A stretch of 64,000 bases of DNA from a virus (IMGVR_UViG_3300034684_000096:56005-120004), one strand, 5' to 3'. Numbered from the stretch's first letter, positions 557 to 13,599 are shown. Notes: a model not told the origin generated them from the sequence alone. Numbers and translations: made by a program.

Positions 557-1029
557 TGTTATCTCCTTATATGTACATTCTATACTAGTATTAGTTATTA
601 GTCAAGAGTAAATGAATAAATAGTTTAAATAGATAACATATAATAGATAGATAGGTATAGTGTATATACATTGTGTATACATTGCGTATTATATGGGTTG
701 TACATTACGTATAAGCAGAAGAGGCCCCTTTTGTTGGAAAAACAACATTTTCTTGCCACATGATAGATAACACCTGTTATGTATAGGTTTTATACTACCC
801 TTTATAGGTCTTATATAGGGGAAATACTATGCTATTTTATACCTTTTAGGGGTTGCAATCGCGTCTCTCGGTACATTTTTGTAGCCCAAAGCCCCTATAT
901 AGCCCACTGTAGCCTATGCTCCTTTCCCTACACGAGCCTTAGCTACCCTAGGCTGTATCCCTACCTTACTCTACCCCTAAAACGCCGTAGAAGCCCATTT
1001 TAGAGCCTTAGAGAGCACCTAAAAACACC

Positions 1030-1083
1030 CATTTTACCCTTATTTTTAGCAACTTTAGCTCCATTTTACCCTTATTTTTAGCA
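1030..1083. repeat. 23-bp direct repeat CCATTTTACCCTTATTTTTAGCA x2
   Basis: two identical copies 31 bp apart in non-coding DNA. Confidence 0.8.
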
Positions 1084-1639
1084 TGTTTGGTCCTATCTGT
1101 AACACATATTGCACAAAATATATCTAAGGCACTATTAAATTGTGCGCAATATATCTATGGTGCTAGTGGTGTTTCAGATACTATCTTCTTATAGGGCTAT
1201 GACTTATGACATATGTTTAATTCCTAGTAACATGGTGGGTTTTGACATATGACATATGACATTGTCAAGTCCGACTCTAGGCATATATCTTATTACCCTG
1301 CGTATTGTATAGGTAAAACCCTATATATACCTTGCGTATTGGTCCAGCTACGTTTCCTCTATGGTGTTTTGTTCGTGTGAAGCATGATAGGCAAATAGAG
1401 CTGTTATTTAGCTATCGGTTAGCTTTAGCTCATTTCCTCTATGGGGTTTTTTTAGAGTATTTTGTACCTTCATTTGAGAGCGTTATTTGAGGGTGTAAGA
1501 TTTGCATAGGGGCAAAATATTTTTACCCCGTACAAAAAAGTAGAGATTTCGGGGTGTTGACCCTCAAATAAACGCTCTATTTACAGGTTGGCTGAAATTC
1601 AAACAAAAGCAGCGGTACAAAAATGAAGATACAAAGAAA

Positions 1640-1678
1640 GCCCCTCTACTGGAAATGACTAGAAACCAGTAGAGGGGC
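1640..1678 (-). terminator. rho-independent terminator of leftward early genes
   Basis: 13-bp stem GCCCCTCTACTGG/CCAGTAGAGGGGC followed on the - strand by TTTCTTT. Confidence 0.8.
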
Positions 1679-1698
1679 AAAGGGTATATAAAGAGAGA

Positions 1699-2178
1699 CT
1701 AGGTAATTTTAAGGTTTTGACGTTTCTTAGTAATGGCTTTACTAAGGCTGTGCCAATACTCACATCCTTCATCTGTAGTTTCCCATTCAAACAAACAGTC
1801 GACGTTAGAAGATTCAAGAAGTATATTGAATACTTCAGCGTCTACATCATATTTGTATTCAGCATTACACACGTTTCTGATAATCTTATCCAGTACCTCT
1901 TCAGTCAACCACTGTGTGTAATGTGCATAACCATTGATATCATCTTTGAAGTAGTTGATATAGTCATCATACTCTTCAATGGGTTTGGCTTCATAGGTGC
2001 CATACATGGAGTCTACTCCATTGAGTACTGAAGCAATGAATTCCGCATTCTTCATATCTGTGGTATAGAGATTAGATTTGTCTTTCGTCTTCTTTACAAG
2101 CTCTCCATCATTGTCAAGTACAAACTTTTCACCTTGTAATGCACCACACGTTACTTCATGTTCGATATAATATTCCAT
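1699..2178 (-). CDS. hypothetical protein
   Basis: ORF; start moved to MEYY (2178), which follows AAGGAG. Confidence 0.7.
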   Translation of the reverse strand: MEYYIEHEVTCGALQGEKFVLDNDGELVKKTKDKSNLYTTDMKNAEFIASVLNGVDSMYGTYEAKPIEEYDDYINYFKDDINGYAHYTQWLTEEVLDKIIRNVCNAEYKYDVDAEVFNILLESSNVDCLFEWETTDEGCEYWHSLSKAITKKRQNLKIT

Positions 2179-2191
2179 ACTGTTTACTCCT

Positions 2192-2488
2192 TTAGTCTTC
2201 AAACCAAAAGCTTAATCTTGTTTTAGCTTCATTTGTTTTATCTTGTAATTGGTCCTCAAATACCTTCTGTTCTTCCATGATGGTAGGAAGCTCAGAGATA
2301 TGATGAAAAGTCAAGTATTCACCTAAAGAGTCAATGAACAAGTCAGAGAAAGCATGAGTGATACATAAGGCCATTTCTTCAGTGAATAGCATCGGTTCTG
2401 GTATACCATTGTAGTGGAAGTATTTATCCGTTTCCAGAATAGCTACACCAGTGTATGGATTGGTGTATACAATAAAGTATTGTTTCAT
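2192..2488 (-). CDS. hypothetical protein (shares a domain with neighbours)
   Basis: ORF with RBS; LFTEE-A-(I)-AFS motif shared with 2485-2850. Confidence 0.7.
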   Translation of the reverse strand: MKQYFIVYTNPYTGVAILETDKYFHYNGIPEPMLFTEEMALCITHAFSDLFIDSLGEYLTFHHISELPTIMEEQKVFEDQLQDKTNEAKTRLSFWFED

Positions 2489-2850
2489 AGTTTCTCCTTT
2501 ACACCAAGTACCATATAATCATTACTAAAGGCTTTGGCAATGATTAGTGCTTGTTCTTCAGTGAATAGCAAAGGAGGTGTGTTGTATGTACTATGAAAAC
2601 AACCATCAGTTCCTAAATACCTATCACCTAATGCTTTAGCGATACCAATGAATGAAGCAACAATCATATATTGAGTATCATCTACGTCTTTCAACCATGC
2701 GTCAGAAATTCCATAACCCAATGCCCTACACTGTTCTACAGGCATACCGTCACATGCATGAGGCCAAAGGTACTCACGTCTTCTTTCTTTAGCTTCTGGA
2801 TATAGACGGTTCATATCCTCTAGGTAAGTCTCTCTATCAAATACTTTCAT
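2485..2850 (-). CDS. hypothetical protein
   Basis: ORF; start moved to MKVFD after AAGGAGAG. Confidence 0.7.
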   Translation of the reverse strand: MKVFDRETYLEDMNRLYPEAKERRREYLWPHACDGMPVEQCRALGYGISDAWLKDVDDTQYMIVASFIGIAKALGDRYLGTDGCFHSTYNTPPLLFTEEQALIIAKAFSNDYMVLGVKEKL

Positions 2851-2860
2851 TTGTCTCTCC

Positions 2861-3058
2861 TTATACCTGTACTGCATTGTATAGGCATTCGTATGAAGCA
2901 TCAACATATCTAAGTGCCATACAGATTGCTTCCGCCTGTTCCCTTGTCATGATGAACATGTCTGTTGCATGCTGGTATGTCTTGAACCCCTCATCCATGC
3001 ACAAGTAGAGGCATGGTTGCTCTTGGTCTGCTGGTGTAAGTTGTACTGTGTATCCCAT
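2861..3058 (-). CDS. hypothetical protein
   Basis: ORF directly after stem-loop promoter and RBS. Confidence 0.7.
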   Translation of the reverse strand: MGYTVQLTPADQEQPCLYLCMDEGFKTYQHATDMFIMTREQAEAICMALRYVDASYECLYNAVQV

Positions 3059-3132
3059 ATTGTTTGTCTCTCCTTATAATTCAAGTATATCATAGGGTTG
3101 GTTGTTAGTCAACCCTATTTGTAGAAGTTTTT

Positions 3133-3336
3133 CTAGTTTCTGTGCCGGAAATACAGTTCTTTGATTGGTGCATACATATCAAAATCTTCTATTTTCTGTA
3201 TGACTTCATTCATTATCTGTCTTGTCTTCTTTTCCCCTACTTCATTGTACAGGGTTGGTACAATAGCTTCCATCATCATGCTTGACATCAGGGACATACT
3301 CTCTTCAATCAATTGCAATACTTTTTCATCACTCAT
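3133..3336 (-). CDS. hypothetical early protein
   Basis: ORF with RBS and promoter. Confidence 0.7.
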   Translation of the reverse strand: MSDEKVLQLIEESMSLMSSMMMEAIVPTLYNEVGEKKTRQIMNEVIQKIEDFDMYAPIKELYFRHRN

Positions 3337-3390
3337 GTTTGTCTCTCCTTATGGTTCTATAATACCATAGTTTATGAATACTGTCAATAC

Positions 3391-3597
3391 CTAAAGATTG
3401 AACACTTTATTCAATCTTTCTACTAATAGAAGTACAGGACACGTTTCACAATGGTCATAGGCATTGTTATCTACCGGACAATTTAAACAGAATTCATCCA
3501 ACTCATTGATGACTTGTTTCGCTTCCTCTTCAGTAGTGGGTACTACGATGGAAGTGTTTCTTCCTTGCGCTTCTAGGTAAATAGTGTTTACGTTCAT
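3391..3597 (-). CDS. small CxxC...CxxC (possible Zn-binding) protein
   Basis: CLNCP and CETCP motifs; RBS. Confidence 0.65.
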   Translation of the reverse strand: MNVNTIYLEAQGRNTSIVVPTTEEEAKQVINELDEFCLNCPVDNNAYDHCETCPVLLLVERLNKVFNL

Positions 3598-3637
3598 AAT
3601 TGCTCCTTATGTTTCTATAATACAATGGTTTAGGTGA

Positions 3638-4171
3638 TTAGTCAATAGGTAAACCGAAGATTTCCCTAACTATATTTCCCAATGGTTCAGTGTACTGGTC
3701 AATATCTACAGTTTCGTTAACAATACCTTGTAAGAATGCATTATACTCATAATCTGGCATTGTCTTGGAATTCTTAATCATACGGAAGGTAATGTAGTTT
3801 GTACCATCGTGGTGCATACCTTTGGCTTTGAATTCATTCCCCTCTAGGTAATACATACCATAGTCTTGGTGGTGGTTAGGGTGAATACAGTTGCTTAAGT
3901 TATAATCCAACAGACTGAAGCCTTGCTTCCTTCCATTCCATAATCCTAGGCTTGCGATAGCAATAATCCTACCTTCCAGTTCCTTATCCAAAGTATATTT
4001 CAATTCATCTAATTGGAATTCAAGGTCAGCTGCTATAAAGTTCCATGCCTCATAATCAGATACACTAGCAATAGTTTCTTCCACATCATCTGATAAGTCA
4101 AACAATTGCTCTTTTGCTTCCTGTACTGCTTCTTCACTATAAGCGTTTTCATTGCTCCATAAAATAATCAT
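3638..4171 (-). CDS. hypothetical phage protein
   Basis: 177-aa ORF with RBS, LGLWNGRKQG motif. Confidence 0.75.
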   Translation of the reverse strand: MIILWSNENAYSEEAVQEAKEQLFDLSDDVEETIASVSDYEAWNFIAADLEFQLDELKYTLDKELEGRIIAIASLGLWNGRKQGFSLLDYNLSNCIHPNHHQDYGMYYLEGNEFKAKGMHHDGTNYITFRMIKNSKTMPDYEYNAFLQGIVNETVDIDQYTEPLGNIVREIFGLPID

Positions 4172-4425
4172 TTGTTTCTCTCCTGTATGTTTTGCATTCT
4201 CTTTCTATGAATACGGATACTTTCATTCAACTCTTCAATCATAGTTTCAATAGTACTATAGAAGCTATCCCATTCTAGAGTACGTGCAACCCCTATGGTG
4301 GTTTCTGGACTGTAGAATTCAACTTCAAGGTTGTCTTGCTCATAACCGATAAATACTTTCATGGTATCAGTTTCTAGGTCCAAAAGCTCTGCAATCATTC
4401 TCTTCACCTTGTCTTGGTAATTCAT
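4168..4425 (-). CDS. hypothetical protein
   Basis: ORF after stem-loop promoter. Confidence 0.7.
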   Translation of the reverse strand: MNYQDKVKRMIAELLDLETDTMKVFIGYEQDNLEVEFYSPETTIGVARTLEWDSFYSTIETMIEELNESIRIHRKRMQNIQERNK

Positions 4426-4499
4426 TTGCTTTCCCTCTCTTTATAACTCTATTGTACCATAGGGGTTGGTTGTTGTCAACCCCTATTTCAGAAGTTTTT

Positions 4500-4826
4500 C
4501 TAAATAATCGCTAGAGCATAAGGTACATAGTTTCCACAGTTGTCACTAATCTCTAGGTTTGCATACAACTTGGCCAAAGCGTCAGTATAAGAGGTTGCAT
4601 CGTGCACAATCTTCTTGCTTGCTTCAGAAACATGCAGAAGGTTTAAAGCATTCAACAACGCTTGTTGATAGTCATATTTTTGCCACGACCGATTAACCCA
4701 TGAATACGTTCCACGCACCGCATGTACCATTTCATAATCAGAATCAAACAATGAGATAGTTACAAACTCATAAGAATATGCTTTGGTGGTCTTGTCTCTC
4801 GTAGTGAAAATAATTGTGTTAGCCAT
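4500..4826 (-). CDS. hypothetical protein
   Basis: start moved to MANT (4826), downstream of promoter and GAGGG RBS. Confidence 0.7.
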   Translation of the reverse strand: MANTIIFTTRDKTTKAYSYEFVTISLFDSDYEMVHAVRGTYSWVNRSWQKYDYQQALLNALNLLHVSEASKKIVHDATSYTDALAKLYANLEISDNCGNYVPYALAII

Positions 4827-4897
4827 TTGTTTTCCCTCTTTATAATTCAAGTATACCATAGGGGTTGGTTTAAGTCAACCCCTATTTGATAAGTTTT

Positions 4898-5212
4898 TTA
4901 GAAAAACATAGTAATGTTAGTCCCCAATGTATGATGAATTCGTACAAGGAATTCCCCTGCAAGTGAATTAGCATTCATGATACTGTTTACTTCACTGTAC
5001 CATCTATTCATACAGAAGCCATCACCATAAAATTGGTAGGCATCATCATAGAACCTAATACCTCTTTGGGTAATTTCCCCGTCTTTGGTGAATTGTACCC
5101 CATACAACTCACCTTCCTCACTGGTATTAGTGATATAGCCGAAAGTTGCTTTCTTTTCTTTTACCGCTTCCATTTCTGCAAGTACTCTAAATTTGAATTC
5201 TTCTTTAGTCAT
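4898..5212 (-). CDS. hypothetical protein
   Basis: ORF with AAGGAG and TTGACA-17-TAGAAT promoter (5243-5271). Confidence 0.7.
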   Translation of the reverse strand: MTKEEFKFRVLAEMEAVKEKKATFGYITNTSEEGELYGVQFTKDGEITQRGIRFYDDAYQFYGDGFCMNRWYSEVNSIMNANSLAGEFLVRIHHTLGTNITMFF

Positions 5213-5315
5213 TGTTGTTTCTCCTTGTTCTCTTTATACCTAATTCTACCATGTATAAGGTATGGTGTCAATAGTATTTGAAAAAATAAATAAAAAAGTT
5301 TTTTCTTTTTAGGTA

Positions 5316-5535
5316 TTGACAACGGTGTGAAAGTATGATATACTGAACAAAAAAGACTTTATTTTTTCTTAAATTTGTATACAGATTAACGTATGACTTA
5401 TGTCATATGTCAGAAGTTCGGAAGTCATAAGTTCTGACATATGTCATAAGCTAACTTCTCACATAAAAAAGCCAACTTTTGACATATGTCATATGACAAG
5501 CGCGAAGACCGATATATGATAATATATCGGTCTTC
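5316..5535 (+). repeat. heptad-repeat non-coding unit, copy 1
   Basis: TTGACA-17-TATACT, TATGAC(A/T) heptads in both orientations, conserved GACAAGCGCGAAGACC, closing hairpin. Confidence 0.85.
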
Positions 5536-5588
5536 AATTTAATTACACGCTATAAAATAAGGGACTATCTCTAGTCCCTTATCAGTTG

Positions 5589-6002
5589 TCACCTCATGTA
5601 CAATTTAATTGGTTCTTTCTCTGATGGAATTTTTACCAAGAAGGTATTGACTCCAGTCTCTCTATCACAGTCAATTTCCATTTGCTCTATCAATTCCCAT
5701 TTGTCGGAATATTCATCAGAATAAGCAATGAGCCTATCTGGTTGTTTCTTTGAACGTTTGATGTTCATAGTTATTCCGGAATCAGAAACCAAGAATACCC
5801 ATGAATAATTACCATCATCATCTAATGAATAATCATTGATGACTACCATGTACAAGTATTCGCTTAAGTATTCATTCCATTCTCTATCGTCAACAATCTT
5901 CTGGAAGTCTTCCATGGAAGGATTGAACAGCGTAATGTGAGTGTTATGTGCTCCTTCTGTGAAGTTTCCACCATTTTTCTTTTTCCAGTCTTGAATAGTC
6001 AT
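5589..6002 (-). CDS. hypothetical protein
   Basis: ORF after stem-loop promoter. Confidence 0.7.
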   Translation of the reverse strand: MTIQDWKKKNGGNFTEGAHNTHITLFNPSMEDFQKIVDDREWNEYLSEYLYMVVINDYSLDDDGNYSWVFLVSDSGITMNIKRSKKQPDRLIAYSDEYSDKWELIEQMEIDCDRETGVNTFLVKIPSEKEPIKLYMR

Positions 6003-6071
6003 TGTTATCTCTCCTTATAATTCAAGTATAGCATAGGGTTGGTTGTTAGTCAACCCTATTTCATAAGTTTT

Positions 6072-6386
6072 TTAGATAAATTCTACTTTCATGTATTGCT
6101 CACTAATCATGATACAATCTTGTTTGAGGATATTTTTCAATACTTGTGCTATGTTGTTAGCTTGGAAGTCATTGTCCATAACTTCCAATACATAGGAAGT
6201 CTCTTGTACACCATTCCAATAACCATCAGTGGTATACAGTGTATATCCTTCCCATTGGGTATTGTGTCTGTTGTACGCTTCCCTAGCTATTTCTATAGCG
6301 TTTACAACTTCTTCTTTTGTGAAAGTCTGTTTGACTTCTGAATTGCTACCAGTCTGTGAACCAATGTAAAGTTTTGTTACTTTCAT
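6072..6386 (-). CDS. hypothetical protein (possibly PII-like/DUF3574-like fold)
   Basis: LYIG...EGYTLY...GYW...E...LKQDCIM pattern; family call tentative. Confidence 0.55.
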   Translation of the reverse strand: MKVTKLYIGSQTGSNSEVKQTFTKEEVVNAIEIAREAYNRHNTQWEGYTLYTTDGYWNGVQETSYVLEVMDNDFQANNIAQVLKNILKQDCIMISEQYMKVEFI

Positions 6387-6488
6387 GTAGTTTCTCCTTG
6401 CTCTCTTTATACTTAATATTACTATATATATAATATAGTGTCAATAGTATTTGAAAAAATAAGTAAAAAAGTTTTTTCTTTTTTAGTA

Positions 6489-6748
6489 TTGACAAAGTAA
6501 TAAACATATGATATACTATAAAGATATGGTTATTTTTATATCCTAGTGTCAGTGTAGACTATGACTTATGTCATATGTGTAGGGTATGACTTATGACATC
6601 AGTATATGGTATGACATATGTCAGAAGTTCGGAATCCAGAAGTTGCACAGTTGTCATATGACATAAGTTTCCCATAAAAAGACCAACTTTTGACACATGT
6701 CATATGACAAGCGCGAAGACCAAAAATAATATATTATTTTTGGTCTTT
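6489..6748 (+). repeat. heptad-repeat non-coding unit, copy 2
   Basis: same architecture as copy 1. Confidence 0.85.
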
Positions 6749-7264
6749 ATTAATCAATTCTCTAAATGAAGCATTATCAATGTATTCTTCTATATGCTTG
6801 CACGCGCTTACATAAATATTGTGTGCTTCCTCTTCAGTAGCATAACGACCCAAATGTATAACCTTTTTGCCTATCCGTATCTTTGCCTCGTACCTACCCT
6901 TATGTTTATCAAAATAACAACCAACAAGTTTACCTTTCCTGTGTACTTTTCGATTTTGATTATTTCCCCTATCAGTAACCAATCTTAAGTTTTCAAACCT
7001 ATTGTCAATCCTATTTCCGTTAATATGGTCAATCTGCATTCCTTCTGGAATATCTTCACCTGTTGTTAATACCCAAACAATAGTATGATAGTATATCCGC
7101 ATACTATTGAACCTTACTTGACAATAACCATTATTAGTACCATTGTTCTTAACAAGAACCCATTTAGTACTTGGGTAACTTCTCAGCCTTTCCAAAGTAC
7201 CATCCTTAAGCCTAAATACTTTCTTCAATTCCTCTACATCAATAGGTTTTCTTTTCATATACAC
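6734..7264 (-). CDS. HNH homing endonuclease with C-terminal AP2-like domain
   Basis: IDHINGNRIDNRFENLR HNH motif; YEAKIRIGKKVIHLGRYATEEEA AP2-like motif. Confidence 0.9.
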   Translation of the reverse strand: MYMKRKPIDVEELKKVFRLKDGTLERLRSYPSTKWVLVKNNGTNNGYCQVRFNSMRIYYHTIVWVLTTGEDIPEGMQIDHINGNRIDNRFENLRLVTDRGNNQNRKVHRKGKLVGCYFDKHKGRYEAKIRIGKKVIHLGRYATEEEAHNIYVSACKHIEEYIDNASFRELINKDQK

Positions 7265-7507
7265 TCCTTGAAATAAAAACCCTATTATACTATCTCCCCC
7301 TTTCGGGTCAGCACGGAAACAGTATAATAGGGTAAGATTTTACTCAAGGAAACAAGAAAGTGCTGATGTCTCTTGTTTCCTCAAACCATATAAAGAGTGT
7401 ATCACATTCCATATGACATTGTCAAGTCCTACTCTAGAAAAAAGTCAACTTATGATATACATATTTCCGGCTTTATAACTAAAGGGGAAGTTACTCCCCT
7501 TGTTGAT

Positions 7508-7720
7508 TTAAAGATAGGATACAATGTTCTGGATATCCGTAACTCTAAGACTGTCAGAACACCCGCTTTCCATGTACAACTTCAGTACGTCGATTGGTTT
7601 CATTTCGTCAATCTCATACGCTGGTACTCTACCCAATGCTCTGTACTCTGTAAGGTTTTGAATCCTTGAGTAAACGTTTGTGTAATACTTTTGTTTCATC
7701 ATTTGTCTCTCCTTGTTCAT
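7508..7720 (-). CDS. hypothetical protein
   Basis: ORF after stem-loop promoter; terminator-like hairpin at ~7481-7502. Confidence 0.65.
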   Translation of the reverse strand: MNKERQMMKQKYYTNVYSRIQNLTEYRALGRVPAYEIDEMKPIDVLKLYMESGCSDSLRVTDIQNIVSYL

Positions 7721-7787
7721 CTTGCCTCTCCTTATAATTCAAGTATATCATAGGGTTAACTAATTGTCAACCCTATATCCAGAAGTT

Positions 7788-8102
7788 TTACAATGTTTTT
7801 ATGAAGTTTTGAATACTTGTGATATCCTCATCAAGGTCGTTGTATGCCTGTTTAGCTCTTCCATATGTGTAATCTAGCAGAAGGTTTGGAAGTGCCTTCA
7901 CAAGTGCCTCATGTACGCTTACCAGCTCAAGGAGCGTAATGTGTCCGTTATTATACTTTTGTTGGTATTCTGCAAGAGTATCCGCTTGGGTACGCATGGC
8001 AGTAATGTTCATCTCAAGCTCGTTGGTCAAAGACTTTCCTCTCTTCCTCAACTCTTCCTTCAGGTTTTCTACTGATTTGTTCATCTCTTCTTTTGTGTTC
8101 AT
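7788..8102 (-). CDS. coiled-coil hypothetical protein
   Basis: start moved to MNTK (8102) after AAGGAGAG. Confidence 0.7.
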   Translation of the reverse strand: MNTKEEMNKSVENLKEELRKRGKSLTNELEMNITAMRTQADTLAEYQQKYNNGHITLLELVSVHEALVKALPNLLLDYTYGRAKQAYNDLDEDITSIQNFIKTL

Positions 8103-8205
8103 GTTGTCTCTCCTTGTTCTCTTTATACCTAATTCTACCATGTACTATAGATAATGTCAATAGTTTTTCAAAAAATAAATAAAAAAGTTTTTTCTTTTTT
8201 TGGTA

Positions 8206-8428
8206 TTGACATATAGAGTAAAGTATGGTATACTGTAAATAGTATGGTTTGTTTTCATATCCTAGCATGTTGCTTGCCTATGACTTATGACATAAGTGAG
8301 TTAGAAGTTCAGAAGTCATAAGCCCTGACATATGACATAAGTAAACTTCTCACATAAAAAAGCCAACTTTTGACATATGTCATATGACAAGCGTGAAGAC
8401 CAAAAATAATATATTATTTTTGGTCTTT
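8206..8428 (+). repeat. heptad-repeat non-coding unit, copy 3
   Basis: same architecture; 3' 60 nt nearly identical to copies 1 and 2. Confidence 0.85.
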
Positions 8429-8431
8429 ATT

Positions 8432-8584
8432 TTACTTCACCTCTTTAAGTATCACGTCTGTTTCGATTCCATTGTACTTAAGTTTAAGCTCTGTTACAAT
8501 CTGTTGTGCAGTACATAAGTGCTCACATACTGCTACACAATTCCAGTCATCTTGACAACCAGCCATTACTAGATATACTTTCAT
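8432..8584 (-). CDS. 50-aa protein below the ORF-track cutoff (MKVYLVMAGCQDDW...)
   Basis: translated by hand; AAGGAGAG RBS and stem-loop promoter upstream. Confidence 0.7.
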   Translation of the reverse strand: MKVYLVMAGCQDDWNCVAVCEHLCTAQQIVTELKLKYNGIETDVILKEVK

Positions 8585-8660
8585 ACTCTCTCCTTGTTCT
8601 CTTTATACCTTAAGTATATCATAGGGTTGGCTTAACTGTCAACCCTATTTGATAAGTTTC

Positions 8661-8999
8661 CTAGAAAATTTTATAGATAAGCTCTTCAAACTTCTCTCTT
8701 GATGGATACTCATAATCACAATAAATGACTTTCCCTTCTACCATAACAACAAAGCTGAAATAGTTGTCCTTGTTCAAAGAATCTTTTATCACAATGTAGT
8801 TATCACTCGTACACTCTGAAGAGATATATACCTTTGTTTTTCCTTCTCCCTCGTAAGTTATGGATACAAGGAACGTAACATTTGTACAAATCGCTTTATC
8901 CAGTTTTTGCAATTCCTGCATTAAACTTACAGGTAGGAATGTTTCTTGCACACCAGAACCCGTTCTCACAATCTTTCCATTTACTGAATATACAATCAT
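8661..8999 (-). CDS. hypothetical protein
   Basis: ORF between two stem-loop promoters. Confidence 0.7.
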   Translation of the reverse strand: MIVYSVNGKIVRTGSGVQETFLPVSLMQELQKLDKAICTNVTFLVSITYEGEGKTKVYISSECTSDNYIVIKDSLNKDNYFSFVVMVEGKVIYCDYEYPSREKFEELIYKIF

Positions 9000-9069
9000 C
9001 TTTGTCCTTCCTTATAATGTAAGTATATCATAGGGATTGATTAATGTCAATCCCTATGTAAGAATGTTT

Positions 9070-9582
9070 CTACAAGTATTTTACCAGTAGTTCTGTATCG
9101 ATATACACTGAACCTCCCATCTCAATACAAGCGTACTGACTGTAATTGTTCTTCAGTTCCTCGTAAGCTCTCTGCTTCAGTCCATAAGGAATTTCATCCT
9201 TATAATCATCCCAAGCTTTCAATACTGCTTTGTATTCATATTCTGCCACAGCTTCGTCGTCAATTGCTGGATATACTGCTAGGTTTGCCACAACATCATA
9301 AATTCTCTGCATGGTATTCAAGGATACCTTATCGAAATCAACGACTACCGCAACTGAACCATAATCACTGAAGAATCTTTTCACTCCCTTGATGTTGCGG
9401 AACATTTTCATAAACTCCTGTACGTTGGCTCTTTCCACACCGCAAGAGGAATCATAATCCCCATAGCAACAGAATGGAATTGACGCATAGTTCGTGTTGT
9501 CCCAATTTTGATAGCACTTGTCCAGCATTGCAACTTCTTTGATAAGCTCCATAGTCTGTTTTGTGAGTTCTTTTCTAGTCAT
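9070..9582 (-). CDS. hypothetical protein
   Basis: ORF between two stem-loop promoters. Confidence 0.75.
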   Translation of the reverse strand: MTRKELTKQTMELIKEVAMLDKCYQNWDNTNYASIPFCCYGDYDSSCGVERANVQEFMKMFRNIKGVKRFFSDYGSVAVVVDFDKVSLNTMQRIYDVVANLAVYPAIDDEAVAEYEYKAVLKAWDDYKDEIPYGLKQRAYEELKNNYSQYACIEMGGSVYIDTELLVKYL

Positions 9583-9652
9583 TGTTCTCTCCTCTATAAT
9601 GTAAGTATATCATAGGGATTGCTTAATGTCAATCCCTATATTTGAAGTTTTT

Positions 9653-9928
9653 TCAGAACGGCATCATTTCTCCATCCCTGTACATATGTCGTAACCTTTG
9701 ACCAACGACCATTGGTTCAATTGTGTATGTATACATACCATACTTGTGATGTAATGTACATTTGGAAGTGTATCCAGCTCGTAAGATACTTGCAATTTCA
9801 GCTTGTGCCAACAGGTAGGTTGTGTGAGCTGAGTGAAAGTCCATTTTTCCAGTTGCTGCGTTGTACACGTAGACTCTATTGATTGCTTTATCCGTTGCGT
9901 AGCTTGCTTTTCTTGGAACGTTTGTCAT
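9653..9928 (-). CDS. hypothetical protein
   Basis: ORF with RBS and promoter. Confidence 0.7.
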   Translation of the reverse strand: MTNVPRKASYATDKAINRVYVYNAATGKMDFHSAHTTYLLAQAEIASILRAGYTSKCTLHHKYGMYTYTIEPMVVGQRLRHMYRDGEMMPF

Positions 9929-10035
9929 TGCCTTTTCTCCTTTACTCTTTAACTATCTATAGTATAGTGGATACTAGTATAAATGTCAATACTATTGTAA
10001 AAAAAAAGATTTATTTTTTATTTTCTGTTTTACTA

Positions 10036-10452
10036 TTGACAAAACTGTATTTTTATGATACAGTTTTTTATAGTGGGGAGCTTATGACACATGACATAAG
10101 TCATAAGTTCAAAATAGAAGTCACTTATGTCTTATGACTTATGACATAAGTTGGTAAAAAAAGCCGTTTTAAGATATGTCATATGACACAAGCGCGAAGA
10201 CCAATATAATACTTATGTCATATGACATAAGTTAAGTTCGGAAGTCATAAGTCCTGACATATGACATAGGCAAACTTCTCACATAAAAAAGGCCACTTAT
10301 GACATATGACATATGACATAAGTCAAGCCGGATATTTACCATATCCGGCTTGTGACATAAGTATAATCCCCATAAGTCATAAGTTCGGAAGTTCGCTATA
10401 CACATATAGTGGTTGCCTAGTTTCTCCCCAACTTTTGACCAACTTATGACAT
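10036..10452 (+). repeat. heptad-repeat non-coding unit, tandem copies 4 and 5
   Basis: TTGACA-17-TACAGT, dense TATGAC(A/T) heptads, CAAGCGCGAAGACC, AACTTCTCACATAAAAAAG block. Confidence 0.85.
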
Positions 10453-10564
10453 TGCCTATAGAACAGGTACAAAGCTATATATAGAATGGTAAAAATAGCC
10501 AAAAAAAATAGCCAAACCCAACGTATGAAACGTTGGGTTTGGTGGTAGTATGGTATATTACATA

Positions 10565-10717
10565 TTATCCAAAGTAGTATACCATACCAGTTTTCTCATT
10601 ATAGCATACGCTATAAAGTCCCTCTTTATCCAATATAGCTTGGATACGCTTGTCATCGTACCCAACATACAACTTGTGACGAAACACACGATTGACCCAT
10701 CTTATTATGTTACTCAT
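10565..10717 (-). CDS. 50-aa protein below the ORF-track cutoff (MSNIIRWVNR...)
   Basis: translated by hand; follows hairpin-RBS repeat; terminator-like hairpin ~10512-10542. Confidence 0.6.
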   Translation of the reverse strand: MSNIIRWVNRVFRHKLYVGYDDKRIQAILDKEGLYSVCYNEKTGMVYYFG

Positions 10718-10945
10718 ATTCAATATCCTTTATATTTTAGGGTAGTACATTACATACTACCCTAGTCATTAATTATAAAGTACCTGTTTTTATACCTCGA
10801 AATTTCATTACTGCTAGTACTTTCTTCCCTTCCCTAGTATTGTACTTTTTAGCGCATACAATACTATCAACCCAGTGCAATCCTGTATAGTAAACTCGAT
10901 ACTTGTCTTTCATATACCGGACCTTTATATCACGATATATAATCA

Positions 10946-11224
10946 TCAATAGTACCTTTCATCTTTGGGTACTATATCGTTATACATGTTTTGTATCAAC
11001 ATGTTATTAGTAACCTTATGATACAAGGGTTTATGCTCTCTTGCTTTTCTAGGTTTACTATGTACAGACTTATGAATTCTATACATTGCTGTATCCAAAT
11101 TGAATAGGTCGTTGAATTTAGCCCGTTCTATACAAGCCTTCTCTACCAGTTCCTTGTAACTGTTACAATTACAAGCTTTAGCTTTCTTGCTACCAGACAA
11201 TTCTAAAAACCGTACTTTAGTCAT
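10946..11224 (-). CDS. basic hypothetical protein
   Basis: ORF after hairpin-RBS repeat. Confidence 0.65.
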   Translation of the reverse strand: MTKVRFLELSGSKKAKACNCNSYKELVEKACIERAKFNDLFNLDTAMYRIHKSVHSKPRKAREHKPLYHKVTNNMLIQNMYNDIVPKDERYY

Positions 11225-11281
11225 TTTTAAATCCCCTTTATATTTTAGGGTAGTACATTACATACTACCCTAGTCATTAAC

Positions 11282-11584
11282 CTAGCAGATAAAACTGTAC
11301 TCACCTAACTCTATACCACCGTACCCATAAGTGAAACTTACAAGGTTTTCAAAACTGAATGTGTTCCATTCTAATTCAGTAACATACAGGGTATTAATTT
11401 TTACCTTGCCATTTAATGCATACAGCCAGTGGTCTACGAATACCAGCCTTGTGCCGCTTGTAAATTCTACAGTAGTGATATCCAAGTGCGTTGATACTTT
11501 ACTGTATACCCTACCACCATGTGCCATTAGAAACTCAATAATTGTATCCTTGTCAATAGAATTGACAACCGTGTGTTTATCCAT
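11282..11584 (-). CDS. hypothetical protein
   Basis: ORF exactly between two hairpin-RBS repeats. Confidence 0.7.
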   Translation of the reverse strand: MDKHTVVNSIDKDTIIEFLMAHGGRVYSKVSTHLDITTVEFTSGTRLVFVDHWLYALNGKVKINTLYVTELEWNTFSFENLVSFTYGYGGIELGEYSFIC

Positions 11585-11639
11585 TTAAATCCCCTTTATA
11601 TTCTAGGGTGGTACATTACATACCACCCTAGTCATTAAT

Positions 11640-12023
11640 TTAGTTAAACATAAACTTGTATAACTTCTCTCGTACTACTTTCCTACTAGGGATAGTCCAG
11701 TCTGCATATCGAGTATAGTCGACTAGTTTCTCACTATTCTTATGCTGACTATAGGTGAACCTTACTGTATTATCGTAAAATGAGTAATACATAGAATGGC
11801 AATGTATATACGGTAAGTCAATATGTTCAACTACCATATATACATCATGGTTGCAATGAGTGTTAATTCTAGCGTTCCAACCAACACCGTTTACTTGCTT
11901 ATTCAATGTTGCAACCATTGATTCGAATTCGTAAAGCAAATAGCTATACTTGCTCCCGATAGTCTCTACTACCGTCTCTCGACTCGACTCATTGTAATCA
12001 ACACAATACTGAATTGTAATCAT
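11640..12023 (-). CDS. hypothetical protein
   Basis: ORF between hairpin repeats. Confidence 0.7.
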   Translation of the reverse strand: MITIQYCVDYNESSRETVVETIGSKYSYLLYEFESMVATLNKQVNGVGWNARINTHCNHDVYMVVEHIDLPYIHCHSMYYSFYDNTVRFTYSQHKNSEKLVDYTRYADWTIPSRKVVREKLYKFMFN

Positions 12024-12278: not shown

Positions 12279-12986
12279 GGTATATGCCTCCCTCTATTGA
12301 GATACGATACTACAAAGTAGTATTTTTCAGATATCCTACGGGTTACACGCTGAACTACTAGGGTCAGTCCTCAACTGACGGCTTTTTATCTGGTAACCGG
12401 ATATCATGCTAGTTAATGTAAAAAAACCTTATCTATACTTAAGAGTATGGGCTGCCAATGTGTTCTTGTGTTGTATGATTTATAGAGTGTTTATGTAGTA
12501 TGTGTGGTTTATGTGTAGTAGTGTATCTAGTAGCATATACATAAACATGCGATATCATAGTACTATCTAATTTGCTCTCATTTGCACGTGAGGCGGCCTA
12601 GAATCAATCTTATATATCAAGTTAAAGAATTACACCGGCCATGTTAATAAAATGCAGTAGCGACAATATACGGGTTTTTACAATATACTACTAGTATAAA
12701 AGTTATATAAGAATTATATAGGATAGCATAGTGTATATTTTATGCATAGAGATTGCATAAACAGGTTGTATGGTATTGCTATAGTTGTTGTATAAAAGTT
12801 ATATAGGTTTTATACAGGTTTTATACAGGTTTTATATAGGACTGATATTTGTCCGATATCAAAGTTATATAGGTTTTATATTAAAATAGTTGAGTTTTTG
12901 TATAGGTTTTATATGGGGGGTACTGCGCACTCCCCTCTCGCAATTTTTGCACTATTTTCCATTCCCTATTTAGGAATTTTTGTGCG

Positions 12987-13128
12987 TAAGTTGCTTATAA
13001 GGGTGGTTTAATTCCGGTAAGTTGCTTATAAGGGTGGTTTAATTCCGGTAAGTTGCATATTAGGGTGGTTTAATTCCGGTAAGTTGCTTATAAGGGTGGT
13101 TTAATTCCGGTAAGTTGCATATTAGGGT
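12987..13128. repeat. 31-bp tandem repeat, ~4.6 copies
   Basis: TAAGTTGC(TTATA/ATATT)AGGGTGGTTTAATTCCGG at 12987, 13018, 13049, 13080, 13111 (partial). Confidence 0.95.
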
Positions 13129-13368
13129 TTTGAATGTCTCTATATAGGTAAGTTGCATACATGATACATAACATCTGTTATATAACAACTACTACGATAA
13201 TGTTTCTTATATCTCATTTCTTTACTGAACAGCTACTATAGTATTACTTATACCCTATATGGTATATTTAATAAATAACCCTTAAAAGGTATAAGTTCGG
13301 ATATGAAAAAAGGGAAGTAGTATATAAACTACCTCCCTCTATATTTTTTCCTCCCAATTTTTTATTAC

Positions 13369-13599
13369 TTATTGGGTCAATTTCGCTTCTATGTCATCAA
13401 CATATGATGTAGGCTCTTTTTTATCATGTTCTTTTCTTATATTCTCTAGTTGCTGGCTATACTTCTCATCTATTGAATCTAATGCTTTACCAATTCTTTT
13501 ATTAGTTACGATTAAGGATATGATTTCTATAATATCCTTTATTGCTGAGATTAGACCATAGACCCCGAATCCCATAAATACTAATGCTAGTGTTTCCAT
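13369..13599 (-). CDS. small membrane protein
   Basis: hydrophobic N-terminus; terminator-like hairpin ~13310-13340. Confidence 0.65.
   Translation of the reverse strand: METLALVFMGFGVYGLISAIKDIIEIISLIVTNKRIGKALDSIDEKYSQQLENIRKEHDKKEPTSYVDDIEAKLTQ

What the first reader, a model, noticed from the sequence alone, without database searches (positions are those of the whole stretch)
5243..10452. Five promoter-driven, ORF-less heptad-repeat units dispersed through the early region
Seen: at 5316, 6489, 8206 and 10036 a rightward TTGACA-17-TATACT (TACAGT at 10036) promoter sits back-to-back with a leftward gene promoter across an A/T tract. It points into ~200 nt with no credible ORF, built from 7-bp units TATGAC(A/T) and variants (CATAAGT, CAGAAGT, CGGAAGT) in both orientations. 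A conserved block AACTTCTCACATAAAAAAGCCAACTTTTGACATATGTCATATGACAAGCGCGAAGACC and a closing hairpin follow. The last locus holds two units, and a fragment lies at 1198-1262. These are the only clear + strand promoters I saw in a - strand region. Established: mixed-orientation heptad arrays are how ribbon-helix-helix proteins such as omega of pSM19035 coat parS sites. Inference: either a family of abundant early small RNAs (protein sponge or anti-defence decoy) or multi-site loading platforms for a phage DNA-binding protein. I recognise no named element of this kind.
Basis: partly seen in the sequence, partly recalled or inferred. Interest (0 to 1): 0.82.

Follow-up and report, generated by a model that had tools for sequence, protein, structure and literature searches.

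The report
Promoter-driven heptad-repeat non-coding units in phage
An uncultured 120-kb phage carries five copies of a new ORF-less unit, each with a strong host-type promoter, arrays of 7-base palindromic repeats and a closing hairpin; the units are real and match no known element, but sequence alone cannot show whether they act as RNA or as DNA sites.

Summary
Four + strand consensus promoters (5316, 6489, 8206, 10036) lie back-to-back with early-gene promoters. They point into five ORF-less units: U1, U2, U3, and U4a fused to U4b. Each unit holds TGWCA cores at 7-bp spacing, a conserved block and a closing hairpin.

TGWCA-N2-TGWCA occurs 19 times in the 120,004-bp genome. All 19 lie in the 1,123 bp of units, against 1.2 expected by chance. 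The hairpin exists in three sequence versions, all fully paired.

I found no match in Rfam, INPHARED, IMG/VR or JGI metagenomes. Relatives exist only in Logan contigs of DNA runs. There the units are kept, diverge more than flanking genes, and sit at rearrangement joints.

The phage encodes no recognisable RHH, omega, HTH_3, Crp-type or ParA protein. The likely host is a Deferribacterales bacterium, judged from CRISPR spacers. Its genome shows no site enrichment and no unit-like CRISPR repeat.

Best reading (0.45): early non-coding RNA genes inside roughly 350-bp divergent-promoter cassettes, which also act as recombination boundaries. The decoy role is inference. The main rival (0.30) is DNA arrays for a dimeric binding protein. 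No RNA data were available. Other readers of this scan noted the same stretch, and no look-alike was found on other DNA.

The parts
5243..5344 (.). U1 divergent promoter pair: - strand TTGACA-17-TAGAAT (5271-5243) for gene 4898-5212, an A/T tract, then + strand TTGACA-17-TATACT with TG (5316-5344)
   Evidence: part of the 155-nt repeat family D3
5345..5545 (+). Unit U1: leader, heptad runs (5390-5451), conserved block (5453-5510), closing hairpin 5504-5535 and a T-rich tail
   Evidence: hairpin -21.4 kcal/mol, z -8.0; listed as terminator-like
6416..6517 (.). U2 divergent promoter pair: - strand 6444-6416 for the SAM-lyase-like gene 6072-6386; + strand 6489-6517
6518..6756 (+). Unit U2: as U1, with an internal 25-nt duplication (6552-6628); hairpin 6715-6748 overlaps the stop of the HNH gene 6734-7264
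8132..8234 (.). U3 divergent promoter pair: - strand 8160-8132 for gene 7788-8102; + strand 8206-8234
8235..8440 (+). Unit U3: heptad runs 8279-8342, block 8343-8401, hairpin 8393-8430 whose core stem and loop (8396-8428) equal those of U2, then a T-rich tail
9961..10064 (.). U4 divergent promoter pair: - strand 9989-9961 for gene 9653-9928; + strand TTGACA-17-TACAGT with TG (10036-10064)
10065..10205 (+). Unit U4a: heptad runs and a diverged block, with only the 5' arm of the hairpin. It ends in a promoter-like ATGACA-16-TATAAT (10183-10210).
10205..10352 (+). Unit U4b: a 22-bp perfect palindrome (10211-10232), heptad runs, the block, and hairpin 10324-10352 in a third sequence version with no T tail
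10353..10452 (+). Tail of loose heptads (CATAAGT, CGGAAGT, CTTATGA) after the U4b hairpin
1198..1262 (+). Fragment: two short heptad runs with no strong promoter, block or hairpin, inside a 0.9-kb non-coding region. One relative (run X10) has loose ends that match the flanks of this fragment next to unit sequence.
   Evidence: (table 7)

Best explanation
The five units are early non-coding RNA genes. Host sigma-70-type RNA polymerase starts at a consensus extended -10 promoter. It transcribes about 190 nt (U1, U3), 230 nt (U2) or 290 nt (U4a+U4b) and stops at the closing hairpin.

The RNA is a string of self-complementary UGWCA heptad modules, an AAGU/ACUU module pair that can form two nested helices, an A-rich conserved stretch and a terminator.

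Each unit is one half of a roughly 350-bp cassette. The other half is the promoter and 5'UTR of a - strand early gene. Recombination between cassettes reshuffles early genes, as PeSL cassettes do in T4-type phages.

Inferred, not shown: the RNA acts in trans as a multivalent decoy or sponge for a nucleic-acid-binding factor during host takeover.
For: Shown by the sequence:
1. All 4 loci have a + strand promoter of the same class as the phage's early gene promoters (TTGACA-17-TATACT plus TG). These make up 5 of the 6 strong + strand sites in the 62-kb - strand arm.
2. Every unit has the same polarity: promoter, leader, heptads, block, hairpin.
3. The closing hairpin occurs in three different sequences, all fully paired (U1; U2 = U3; U4b). 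They fold at z -5.8 to -8.0.
4. U1 and U3 hairpins have T-rich tails on the + strand only and are listed as terminator-like. In U2 and U3 the stem extends through G-U pairs on the + strand.
5. U4a, the one unit without a hairpin, runs directly into U4b.
6. Two nested helices pair in 98.2% of cells across 4 units, against 31-59% when slid. They show one double change and three one-sided changes that keep a pair through G-U.
7. No shared ORF exists.
8. Flanking genes are not paralogues, so the units are kept on their own.
9. In Logan contigs of three other studies the units persist and lie at joints. One example is 5531 to 7471 in one X4 contig, with 248 nt on its shorter side.

Context: neighbouring early genes include a SAM-lyase-like ORF and two Lar-like ORFs. 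Notes from other readers, which I did not check, describe an RNA-repair and small-RNA toolkit elsewhere in this genome.
Against: No RNA data exist, so transcription is inferred from consensus matches alone.

Covariation is not significant: 126 of 500 shuffles reach the observed score.

Whole units fold as well or better as - strand RNA. The - strand is more stable in 4 of the 5 stretches folded. Structure therefore does not single out the + strand.

Only 2 of the 4 hairpins pass the terminator scan, and U4b has no T tail.

Palindromic cores at a strict 7-bp spacing are the classic mark of dimeric DNA-binding proteins, not of RNA ligands.

Heptad runs also occur without a promoter at 1198-1262.

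In run X4 the units laid at 81-88% identity with gaps counted, against 94-98% for flanking genes. Per-base constraint is therefore weak, or paralogues were laid on each other.
Confidence: 0.45

Rival explanations
1. DNA-level arrays. The TGWCA cores, each a small palindrome and spaced 7 bp apart in runs of 2-4, are cooperative binding sites for a small dimeric DNA-binding protein of phage or host. The binding mode would resemble omega or MetJ. The protein-coated arrays could block RNA polymerase coming from the strong promoter, control the internal promoter-like sites, organise or anchor the incoming genome, or titrate a host protein. In this reading the RNA is a by-product.
For: All 19 TGWCA-N2-TGWCA sites in the genome lie in the units. 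Cores are palindromic and runs read the same on both strands. The units fold equally well on either strand. Heptads occur without a promoter at 1198-1262 and 10353-10452. The last heptad pair of every block forms the -35 of a promoter-like site: ATGACA-16/17-TAnnnT at 5493, 6704, 8384 and 10183. Omega sites show that contiguous heptads in mixed orientation can bind one RHH dimer each (passages of PMC9499535).
Against: No binder was identified. Omega_Repress, RHH_1, HTH_3, HTH_Crp_2 and CbiA/ParA gave 0 of 5 families in six-frame searches of the 120-kb record, which is 85% complete. No DNA-binding family except HNH and zinc ribbons or fingers appeared among the 47 early ORFs scanned. The likely host genome has only 2 sites of the 12-mer, against 4 for the reversed control. 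This reading explains neither the invariable promoter-to-hairpin polarity nor the compensated hairpins.
Confidence: 0.3
2. Purely architectural cassettes. The units are divergent-promoter and terminator modules that insulate early genes from read-through and antisense transcription. They also provide homology for modular shuffling, as an enlarged PeSL would. In this reading the heptads arose by slippage and hairpin selection, and the RNA has no function in trans.
For: Nine PeSL-like hairpin promoters occupy the other gene junctions of the same region (family D1). The cassette includes the neighbouring gene's promoter and 5'UTR (D3). Relatives show joints at or between units. U2 and U3 share the same core hairpin stem and loop although the rest of the two units differs, which points to gene conversion. 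U2 carries a 25-nt internal duplication. Short TGWCATA runs occur as simple tandem repeats in unrelated viral contigs, where 8 loci were found, about the number I estimate for chance.
Against: A terminator and a promoter need about 70 bp, not 200-290 nt of ordered modules. The same module order is kept in all units and in the pieces seen from relatives (table 5c). Heptad runs are of mixed orientation and interrupted, so they are not simple satellites: TRF reports only 4 short period-7 rows between 1000 and 10600, and one of those (10010-10024) is a T-rich run with no heptad cores.
Confidence: 0.15
3. Transcription-activated replication origins. The strong promoter makes an RNA that forms an R-loop in the AT-rich, easily unwound palindromic region and primes DNA synthesis. 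This is the mechanism described for T4 oriF and oriG, which I recall and did not read here.
For: Promoter plus ORF-less AT-rich structured DNA, in several dispersed copies.
Against: The units end in a strong hairpin. There are 0 DnaA boxes in the 4 loci, against 16 in the window. GC skew follows gene orientation and shows no turn at the units. A better origin candidate lies nearby: 4.6 tandem copies of a 31-bp iteron at 12986-13128 inside a 1.1-kb non-coding region.
Confidence: 0.05
4. Chance or neutrally drifting satellite sequence with fortuitous promoter matches.
For: Units diverge faster than genes in relatives.
Against: The enrichment is far beyond chance. Four promoters scoring 10 or 11 of 12, each with TG, sit in the same position and orientation. 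Three hairpin versions are compensated. Five copies lie between unrelated genes.
Confidence: 0.02

Closest known systems
PeSL (promoter-early stem-loop) cassettes of T4-type phages (Arbiol et al. 2010, PMC2839356; abstract and outline read)
   Same: [quoted passage not shown] They lie between small non-essential early genes, and recombination between copies shuffles genes. This window has 9 such hairpin promoters, and the heptad units sit at rearrangement joints in relatives.
   Different: As the abstract describes them, PeSLs are a promoter plus a stem-loop serving the genes. The units here add a second promoter on the opposite strand and 190-290 nt of ordered heptad modules with no gene. There is no sequence similarity.
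Omega (RHH ParB) heptad arrays, the parS and operator sites of pSM19035 (PMC9499535; passages read)
   Same: 7-bp repeat units, contiguous, in direct and inverted orientation, present at several sites on one replicon.
   Different: The omega consensus is 5'-WATCACW-3' and non-palindromic, in runs of 7-10 that overlap the promoters they control. It works with cognate omega and ParA genes. Here the core is TGWCA, in heptads such as TATGACA and TATGTCA. Runs are 2-4 long and begin about 40 nt or more (about 15 nt at U4a) downstream of the predicted start. No omega, RHH_1 or ParA gene is found.
Untranslated repeat regions R1-R3 with the injection stop signal in the pre-early region of T5-like phages (Davison, bioRxiv 10.1101/866236; passages read)
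   Same: [quoted passage not shown] They lie among poorly conserved early ORFs of a roughly 120-kb phage, are better kept than the ORFs around them, are of unknown function, and in T5 have an HNH endonuclease gene inserted between two of them. Here an HNH gene abuts U2.
   Different: The T5 regions carry ordered DnaA boxes and are not described as promoter-driven units. There are 0 DnaA boxes here. There is no sequence similarity, and the terminase of this phage is at most 45% identical to any cultured phage's.
Phage-encoded small RNAs with a promoter and terminator but no ORF, including RNA anti-CRISPRs built on solitary CRISPR repeats
   Same: A stand-alone promoter, a short ORF-less transcript and a terminator, set in an anti-defence gene neighbourhood.
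   Different: No Rfam family matches. The units do not resemble the CRISPR repeat of the likely host, whose best ungapped match anywhere in the phage is 22 of 36.

Membership tests
Omega/RHH-ParB heptad sites (pSM19035 type) | Contiguous 7-bp repeats in direct and inverted orientation | tested here: met
   19 core pairs at exactly 7 bp, in runs of 2-4 of mixed orientation. Omega sites have 7-10 repeats, and at least 4 are needed for ParA activation.
Omega/RHH-ParB heptad sites (pSM19035 type) | Repeat consensus 5'-WATCACW-3' | tested here: not met
   The heptads here are TATGACA, TATGTCA, TATGACT and similar, with core TGWCA. Consensus taken from PMC9499535.
Omega/RHH-ParB heptad sites (pSM19035 type) | Arrays overlap the promoters they regulate | tested here: not met
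   Arrays start about 40 nt or more (about 15 nt at U4a) downstream of the main promoters. They overlap only weak internal promoter-like sites.
Omega/RHH-ParB heptad sites (pSM19035 type) | Cognate RHH protein and ParA ATPase on the same replicon | tested here: not met
   PF07764, PF01402 and PF01656 gave 0 matches at E <= 1 in six frames of the 120-kb record. The controls responded for PF01402 and PF01656. The record is 85% complete, so absence is not proven.
PeSL cassettes (T4-type phages) | Strong sigma-70-like promoter joined to a stem-loop terminator in a repeated cassette | tested here: met
   Promoters scoring 10-11 of 12 with TG, and hairpins at z -5.8 to -8.0. Function is untested.
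PeSL cassettes (T4-type phages) | Recombination between copies shuffles neighbouring genes | tested here: inconclusive
   Joints at or between units appear in Logan contigs of X4, X6 and X10. Most have short sides, the tool warns about repeats, and the contigs could not be fetched.
PeSL cassettes (T4-type phages) | The cassette is only a promoter plus stem-loop serving the flanking genes | tested here: not met
   The units add an opposite-strand promoter and 190-290 nt of ordered ORF-less modules.
Any curated RNA family (Rfam 15) | Score at or above the family's gathering threshold | tested here: not met
   Only 8 tRNAs appear in the window at gathering thresholds. In 5200-10500 the 10 sub-threshold matches have E 0.88-4.9 and scores of 17-22 bits, against cut-offs of 43-171.
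RNA anti-CRISPR / solitary repeat unit | Sequence resembles a CRISPR repeat of the host | tested here: not met
   The only host array found (L011) has a 36-nt repeat. Its best ungapped match in the phage genome is 22 of 36 and lies outside the units. Other host arrays were not surveyed.
T5-type untranslated repeat regions / injection stop signal | Ordered DnaA boxes within conserved inverted repeats | tested here: not met
   0 DnaA-box matches in the 4 loci, against 16 in the window. Feature taken from 10.1101/866236.
Type III toxin-antitoxin RNA (ToxI-like; recalled) | Tandem direct repeats of about 34-45 nt followed by a toxin gene on the same strand | tested here: not met
   TRF finds only period-7 rows and one 25-nt duplication of 2.8 copies in U2. 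No + strand gene follows any unit.

The most novel reading that the evidence does not exclude
The units are a new class of nucleic-acid anti-defence element. They would be abundant early RNAs, or their DNA, whose many UGWCA/TGWCA modules titrate a host defence or takeover target. They would work alongside the neighbouring SAM-lyase-like and Lar-like anti-restriction genes and the phage's RNA-repair toolkit.
Probability: 0.15. Interest if true: 0.85.

Novelty: new variant of a known kind. Interest (0 to 1): 0.6.

Why it matters
If the units make functional RNAs, they add a new family of phage early non-coding RNAs. Their repeat-built, multivalent design is not described for phages. They come from a phage that probably infects Deferribacterales, a group with very few known phages.

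If they are DNA sites, they point to an unrecognised heptad-binding protein and a new use of omega-like cooperative arrays in a lytic phage.

In either case they mark the boundaries at which early genes are exchanged between relatives. This extends the PeSL idea of mobile regulatory cassettes beyond T4-type phages.

Tried and rejected
Homologues. None were found in the following searches:
- INPHARED near and distant modes. All 20 listed rows of the 23 distant hits lie outside the units, 19 of them under the HNH gene.
- IMG/VR patterns. L008 is a chance hit in a coding region.
- IMG/VR by protein. The only hit was L009, an 11-kb contig that starts in the terminase.
- JGI metagenomes by protein and by pattern. 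L010 is a chance hit.
- Earlier findings of this scan by sequence and by relatives.

Expression. No RNA holder was listed among the 20 runs.

Contigs of relatives. One flanking protein has 3 Logan homologues at 89, 64 and 62% identity. No alignment of homologous units could therefore be built, and no covariance model was made.

Anticodon-loop mimicry. UGUCA and UGACA equal U33 plus the Asp or Val anticodon plus A37. The likely host's tRNA-Asp and tRNA-Val loops have G at position 37 and unrelated stems. Most cores sit in runs that would pair rather than loop. I rejected this as unsupported.

CRISPR-repeat mimicry. Rejected.

Host regulon. The 12-mer TGWCATATGWCA occurs at 2 sites in the host MAG against 4 for the reversed control. 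BLAST of one unit against 63 genomes of the same order gave only noise, with best E 0.003 on the AT-rich hairpin. The one 53-nt hit lies in a coding region.

Restriction-site decoy. CATATG is not avoided elsewhere: 53 copies outside the units region, and 73 in the whole genome against 40 expected.

Segmental duplication. The flanking genes are unrelated.

Heptad triple runs in IMG/VR. Eight loci were found, about my rough chance estimate. Several are simple tandem repeats, and L039 has a larger array. None resembles the unit architecture.

Literature. A full-text search for four 12-14-nt motifs found 4 papers, none about phage operators. I saw the listing only. A search for heptad repeats plus phage non-coding RNA gave nothing relevant, again from the listing only.

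Supplements of papers were closed and were not needed.

Full report
Setting. The window is bases 56005-120004 of a 120,004-bp IMG/VR phage record that CheckV rates 85% complete. Genes run on the - strand from about 32.8 to 94.9 kb of the record, and the structural genes follow on the + strand. Strong - strand sigma-70-type promoters cluster between 50 and 68 kb, so the finding lies in the middle of the early region. The nearest cultured phages share at most 45% terminase identity.

The promoter scan lists + strand TTGACA-17-TATACT sites with a TG extension at 5316, 6489 and 8206, and TTGACA-17-TACAGT with TG at 10036. Each lies back-to-back with a - strand promoter of the same class. Across the whole record only 15 + strand sites reach this quality. 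Six lie in the - strand arm, and five of those six belong to the units.

Repeat search and alignment define five units:
- U1 (5345-5545)
- U2 (6518-6756)
- U3 (8235-8440)
- U4a (10065-10205), which has no hairpin
- U4b (10205-10352)
A loose heptad tail runs to 10452, and a fragment lies at 1198-1262.

The repeated cassette also includes the - strand promoter and the 5'UTR of the neighbouring gene. This 155-nt family has 3 copies. The flanking genes are not paralogues.

Anatomy of the heptads. The repeating element is best described as a core TGWCA, itself a small palindrome. Cores are spaced exactly 7 bp apart, joined by TA, and runs of 2-4 are capped by ACTTA on the left and TAAGT on the right.

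TGWCA-N2-TGWCA occurs 19 times in the record, and all 19 lie in the 1,123 bp of units. Thirty Markov-1 genomes gave a mean of 1.2 and a maximum of 3. Triple runs occur 5 times, all in the units, against none simulated. Single TGWCA cores are not enriched genome-wide (286 observed, 312 simulated), so it is the arrangement that is special. TRF reports only short period-7 rows, so these are not simple satellites.

The closing hairpin. U1, U2/U3 and U4b carry three different hairpin sequences, and all are fully paired at z -5.8 to -8.0. This is the clearest sign of selection for a structure. U1 and U3 have T-rich tails on the + strand and are listed as terminator-like. The U2 tail has too few T, and U4b has none. 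The hairpins fold almost as well on the - strand.

RNA or DNA? For RNA, three points stand out:
- Every unit has a promoter of early-gene strength.
- Polarity from promoter to hairpin is invariant.
- The one hairpin-less unit is fused to the next.

RNAalifold proposes two nested helices: GUCAGAAGUU with AACUUUUGAC, and GGAAGU with ACUUCU. On four units they pair in 98.2% of cells, against 31-59% when slid. They show one double change and three one-sided changes that keep a pair through G-U. With four sequences, however, 126 of 500 shuffles do as well, so this is not evidence of covariation.

Against a specifically + strand RNA, whole units fold as well or better when read from the - strand. 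This is expected if the symmetry belongs to the duplex. A strict 7-bp register of palindromic cores is how small dimeric DNA-binding proteins such as omega read DNA. Heptad runs also occur without a promoter.

I looked for a binder and found none. Five DNA-binding or partition families gave no match in six frames of the record. Forty-seven early ORFs gave no DNA-binding family apart from HNH and zinc ribbons or fingers. What those scans did show is an anti-restriction neighbourhood. A SAM-lyase-like ORF is driven by the U2 cassette's - strand promoter, and two Lar-like ORFs lie nearby.

Relatives. Searches of INPHARED, IMG/VR and JGI metagenomes found nothing. Public DNA runs of nine studies hold parts of the stretch, from subsurface, aquatic, sludge, hydrocarbon and other habitats. 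None is on record as RNA.

I laid Logan contigs of four runs on the stretch. The units are present in relatives. In X4, gaps counted, they laid at 81-88% identity against 94-98% for flanking genes. Contigs join one unit to another, or to a distant gene. In X4, for example, 5531 joins 7471, skipping two genes, U2 and the HNH gene. The letters lying between joints are again heptads and block pieces in the same order. This fits units that are kept as modules, exchange parts by recombination, and mark the borders of gene cassettes.

This behaviour matches the PeSL cassettes of T4-type phages (abstract of PMC2839356). The window also has nine PeSL-like hairpin promoters at other junctions. The joints therefore rest on one table, and most have short sides.

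Host. A search with an alignment of a flanking protein hit a 2.5-kb contig of a Deferribacterales MAG that is a CRISPR array. Two overlapping spacers are involved: spacer 5 matches the phage gene 9653-9928 at 25 of 29 nt, and spacer 3 shares about 22 nt of it. Another spacer shares 15 of 15 nt with the U4b hairpin arm. This makes Deferribacterales or close kin the likely host and fits the habitats of the runs.

Neither that genome nor 63 genomes of its order contain unit-like sequence or an excess of the 12-mer site. Its CRISPR repeat does not resemble the units.

Comparison with known systems. The units are not members of the omega/parS family: the consensus, run length, promoter overlap and partner genes all fail. 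They belong to no Rfam family, do not mimic the host's CRISPR repeat, lack the DnaA-box structure of the T5 injection stop signal, and are not ToxI-like arrays.

In architecture they come closest to two things. One is the PeSL cassette, enlarged by a second promoter and an ORF-less transcript. The other is the set of dispersed untranslated repeat regions in the T5 pre-early region, whose function is also unknown and which also host an HNH insertion (passages of 10.1101/866236).

Verdict. The feature is real, highly non-random and without a described counterpart. I commit to early non-coding RNA genes inside divergent-promoter cassettes as the most likely reading (0.45). DNA-level heptad arrays are a close rival (0.30). 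A purely architectural role (0.15), R-loop origins (0.05) and neutral drift (0.02) follow. A nearby iteron region is a better origin candidate than the units. The decoy or sponge role is inference from context only.

Noticed in passing
L011 (2503-bp contig of a Deferribacterales MAG); window 9816-9844 and 10320-10334: The contig is a CRISPR array of 10 repeats of 36-37 nt. Spacer 5 matches phage gene 9653-9928 at 25 of 29 nt, and spacer 3 overlaps it by about 22 nt. Spacer 1 shares 15 of 15 nt with the U4b hairpin arm. This gives a likely host, Deferribacterales, for an otherwise unassigned phage.
   Followed up: partly
window 7797-8121 (run X10, table 7): A 353-nt Logan contig carries phage sequence 7797-8121 and then runs into 28 letters that match the Deferribacterales CRISPR repeat at 22 of 28. 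It is either an assembly chimera through a spacer or a repeat-like sequence in a relative phage.
   Followed up: no
window 12280-13370: A 1.1-kb non-coding region holds 4.6 tandem copies of a 31-bp iteron (12986-13128, 94% matches) and 11- and 22-bp AT-rich repeats (12780-12886). It is a candidate replication origin or packaging region.
   Followed up: partly
window 1000-1700: A 0.7-kb ORF-poor region holds five pairs of short direct repeats and nested inverted repeats (1430-1451/1637-1658, 1461-1475/1621-1635, 1483-1494/1560-1571). These may outline a large structured RNA or a protein-binding region. The heptad fragment lies inside it.
   Followed up: partly
window 557-9651 (9 copies) and 10708-11640 (3 copies): Two families of hairpin promoters lie at gene junctions. 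In each, the -35 hexamer of a - strand early promoter sits in a stem-loop that follows the previous gene, as in the PeSL cassettes of T4-type phages.
   Followed up: partly
whole record G000: TGATCA is absent, with 0 copies against about 40 expected from base composition. CTTAAG (20) and TTCGAA (14) are also low. This suggests avoidance of particular restriction sites.
   Followed up: no
window 6072-6386; two of the 37 ORFs in alignment A4: A SAM-lyase-like early ORF (PF23780, E 6e-5, below the cut-off) and two Lar-like restriction-alleviation ORFs (best E 7e-10) mark the region as an anti-restriction module.
   Followed up: partly
window 6734-7264 and about 7262-7425: An HNH homing endonuclease gene (PHROG 99, E 1e-43) abuts the U2 hairpin. 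It has its own promoter (7425-7396) and a long hairpin-forming leader at about 7262-7352. In run X4 one contig joins 5531 to 7471, so the segment containing this gene is skipped in that contig.
   Followed up: partly
L039 (IMG/VR contig of 80.5 kb), around locus 7740-7880: An unrelated viral contig (GC 0.43) has an intergenic array of CATATGACA-type heptads interrupted by a repeated spacer. Similar motifs may therefore recur in other phages.
   Followed up: no
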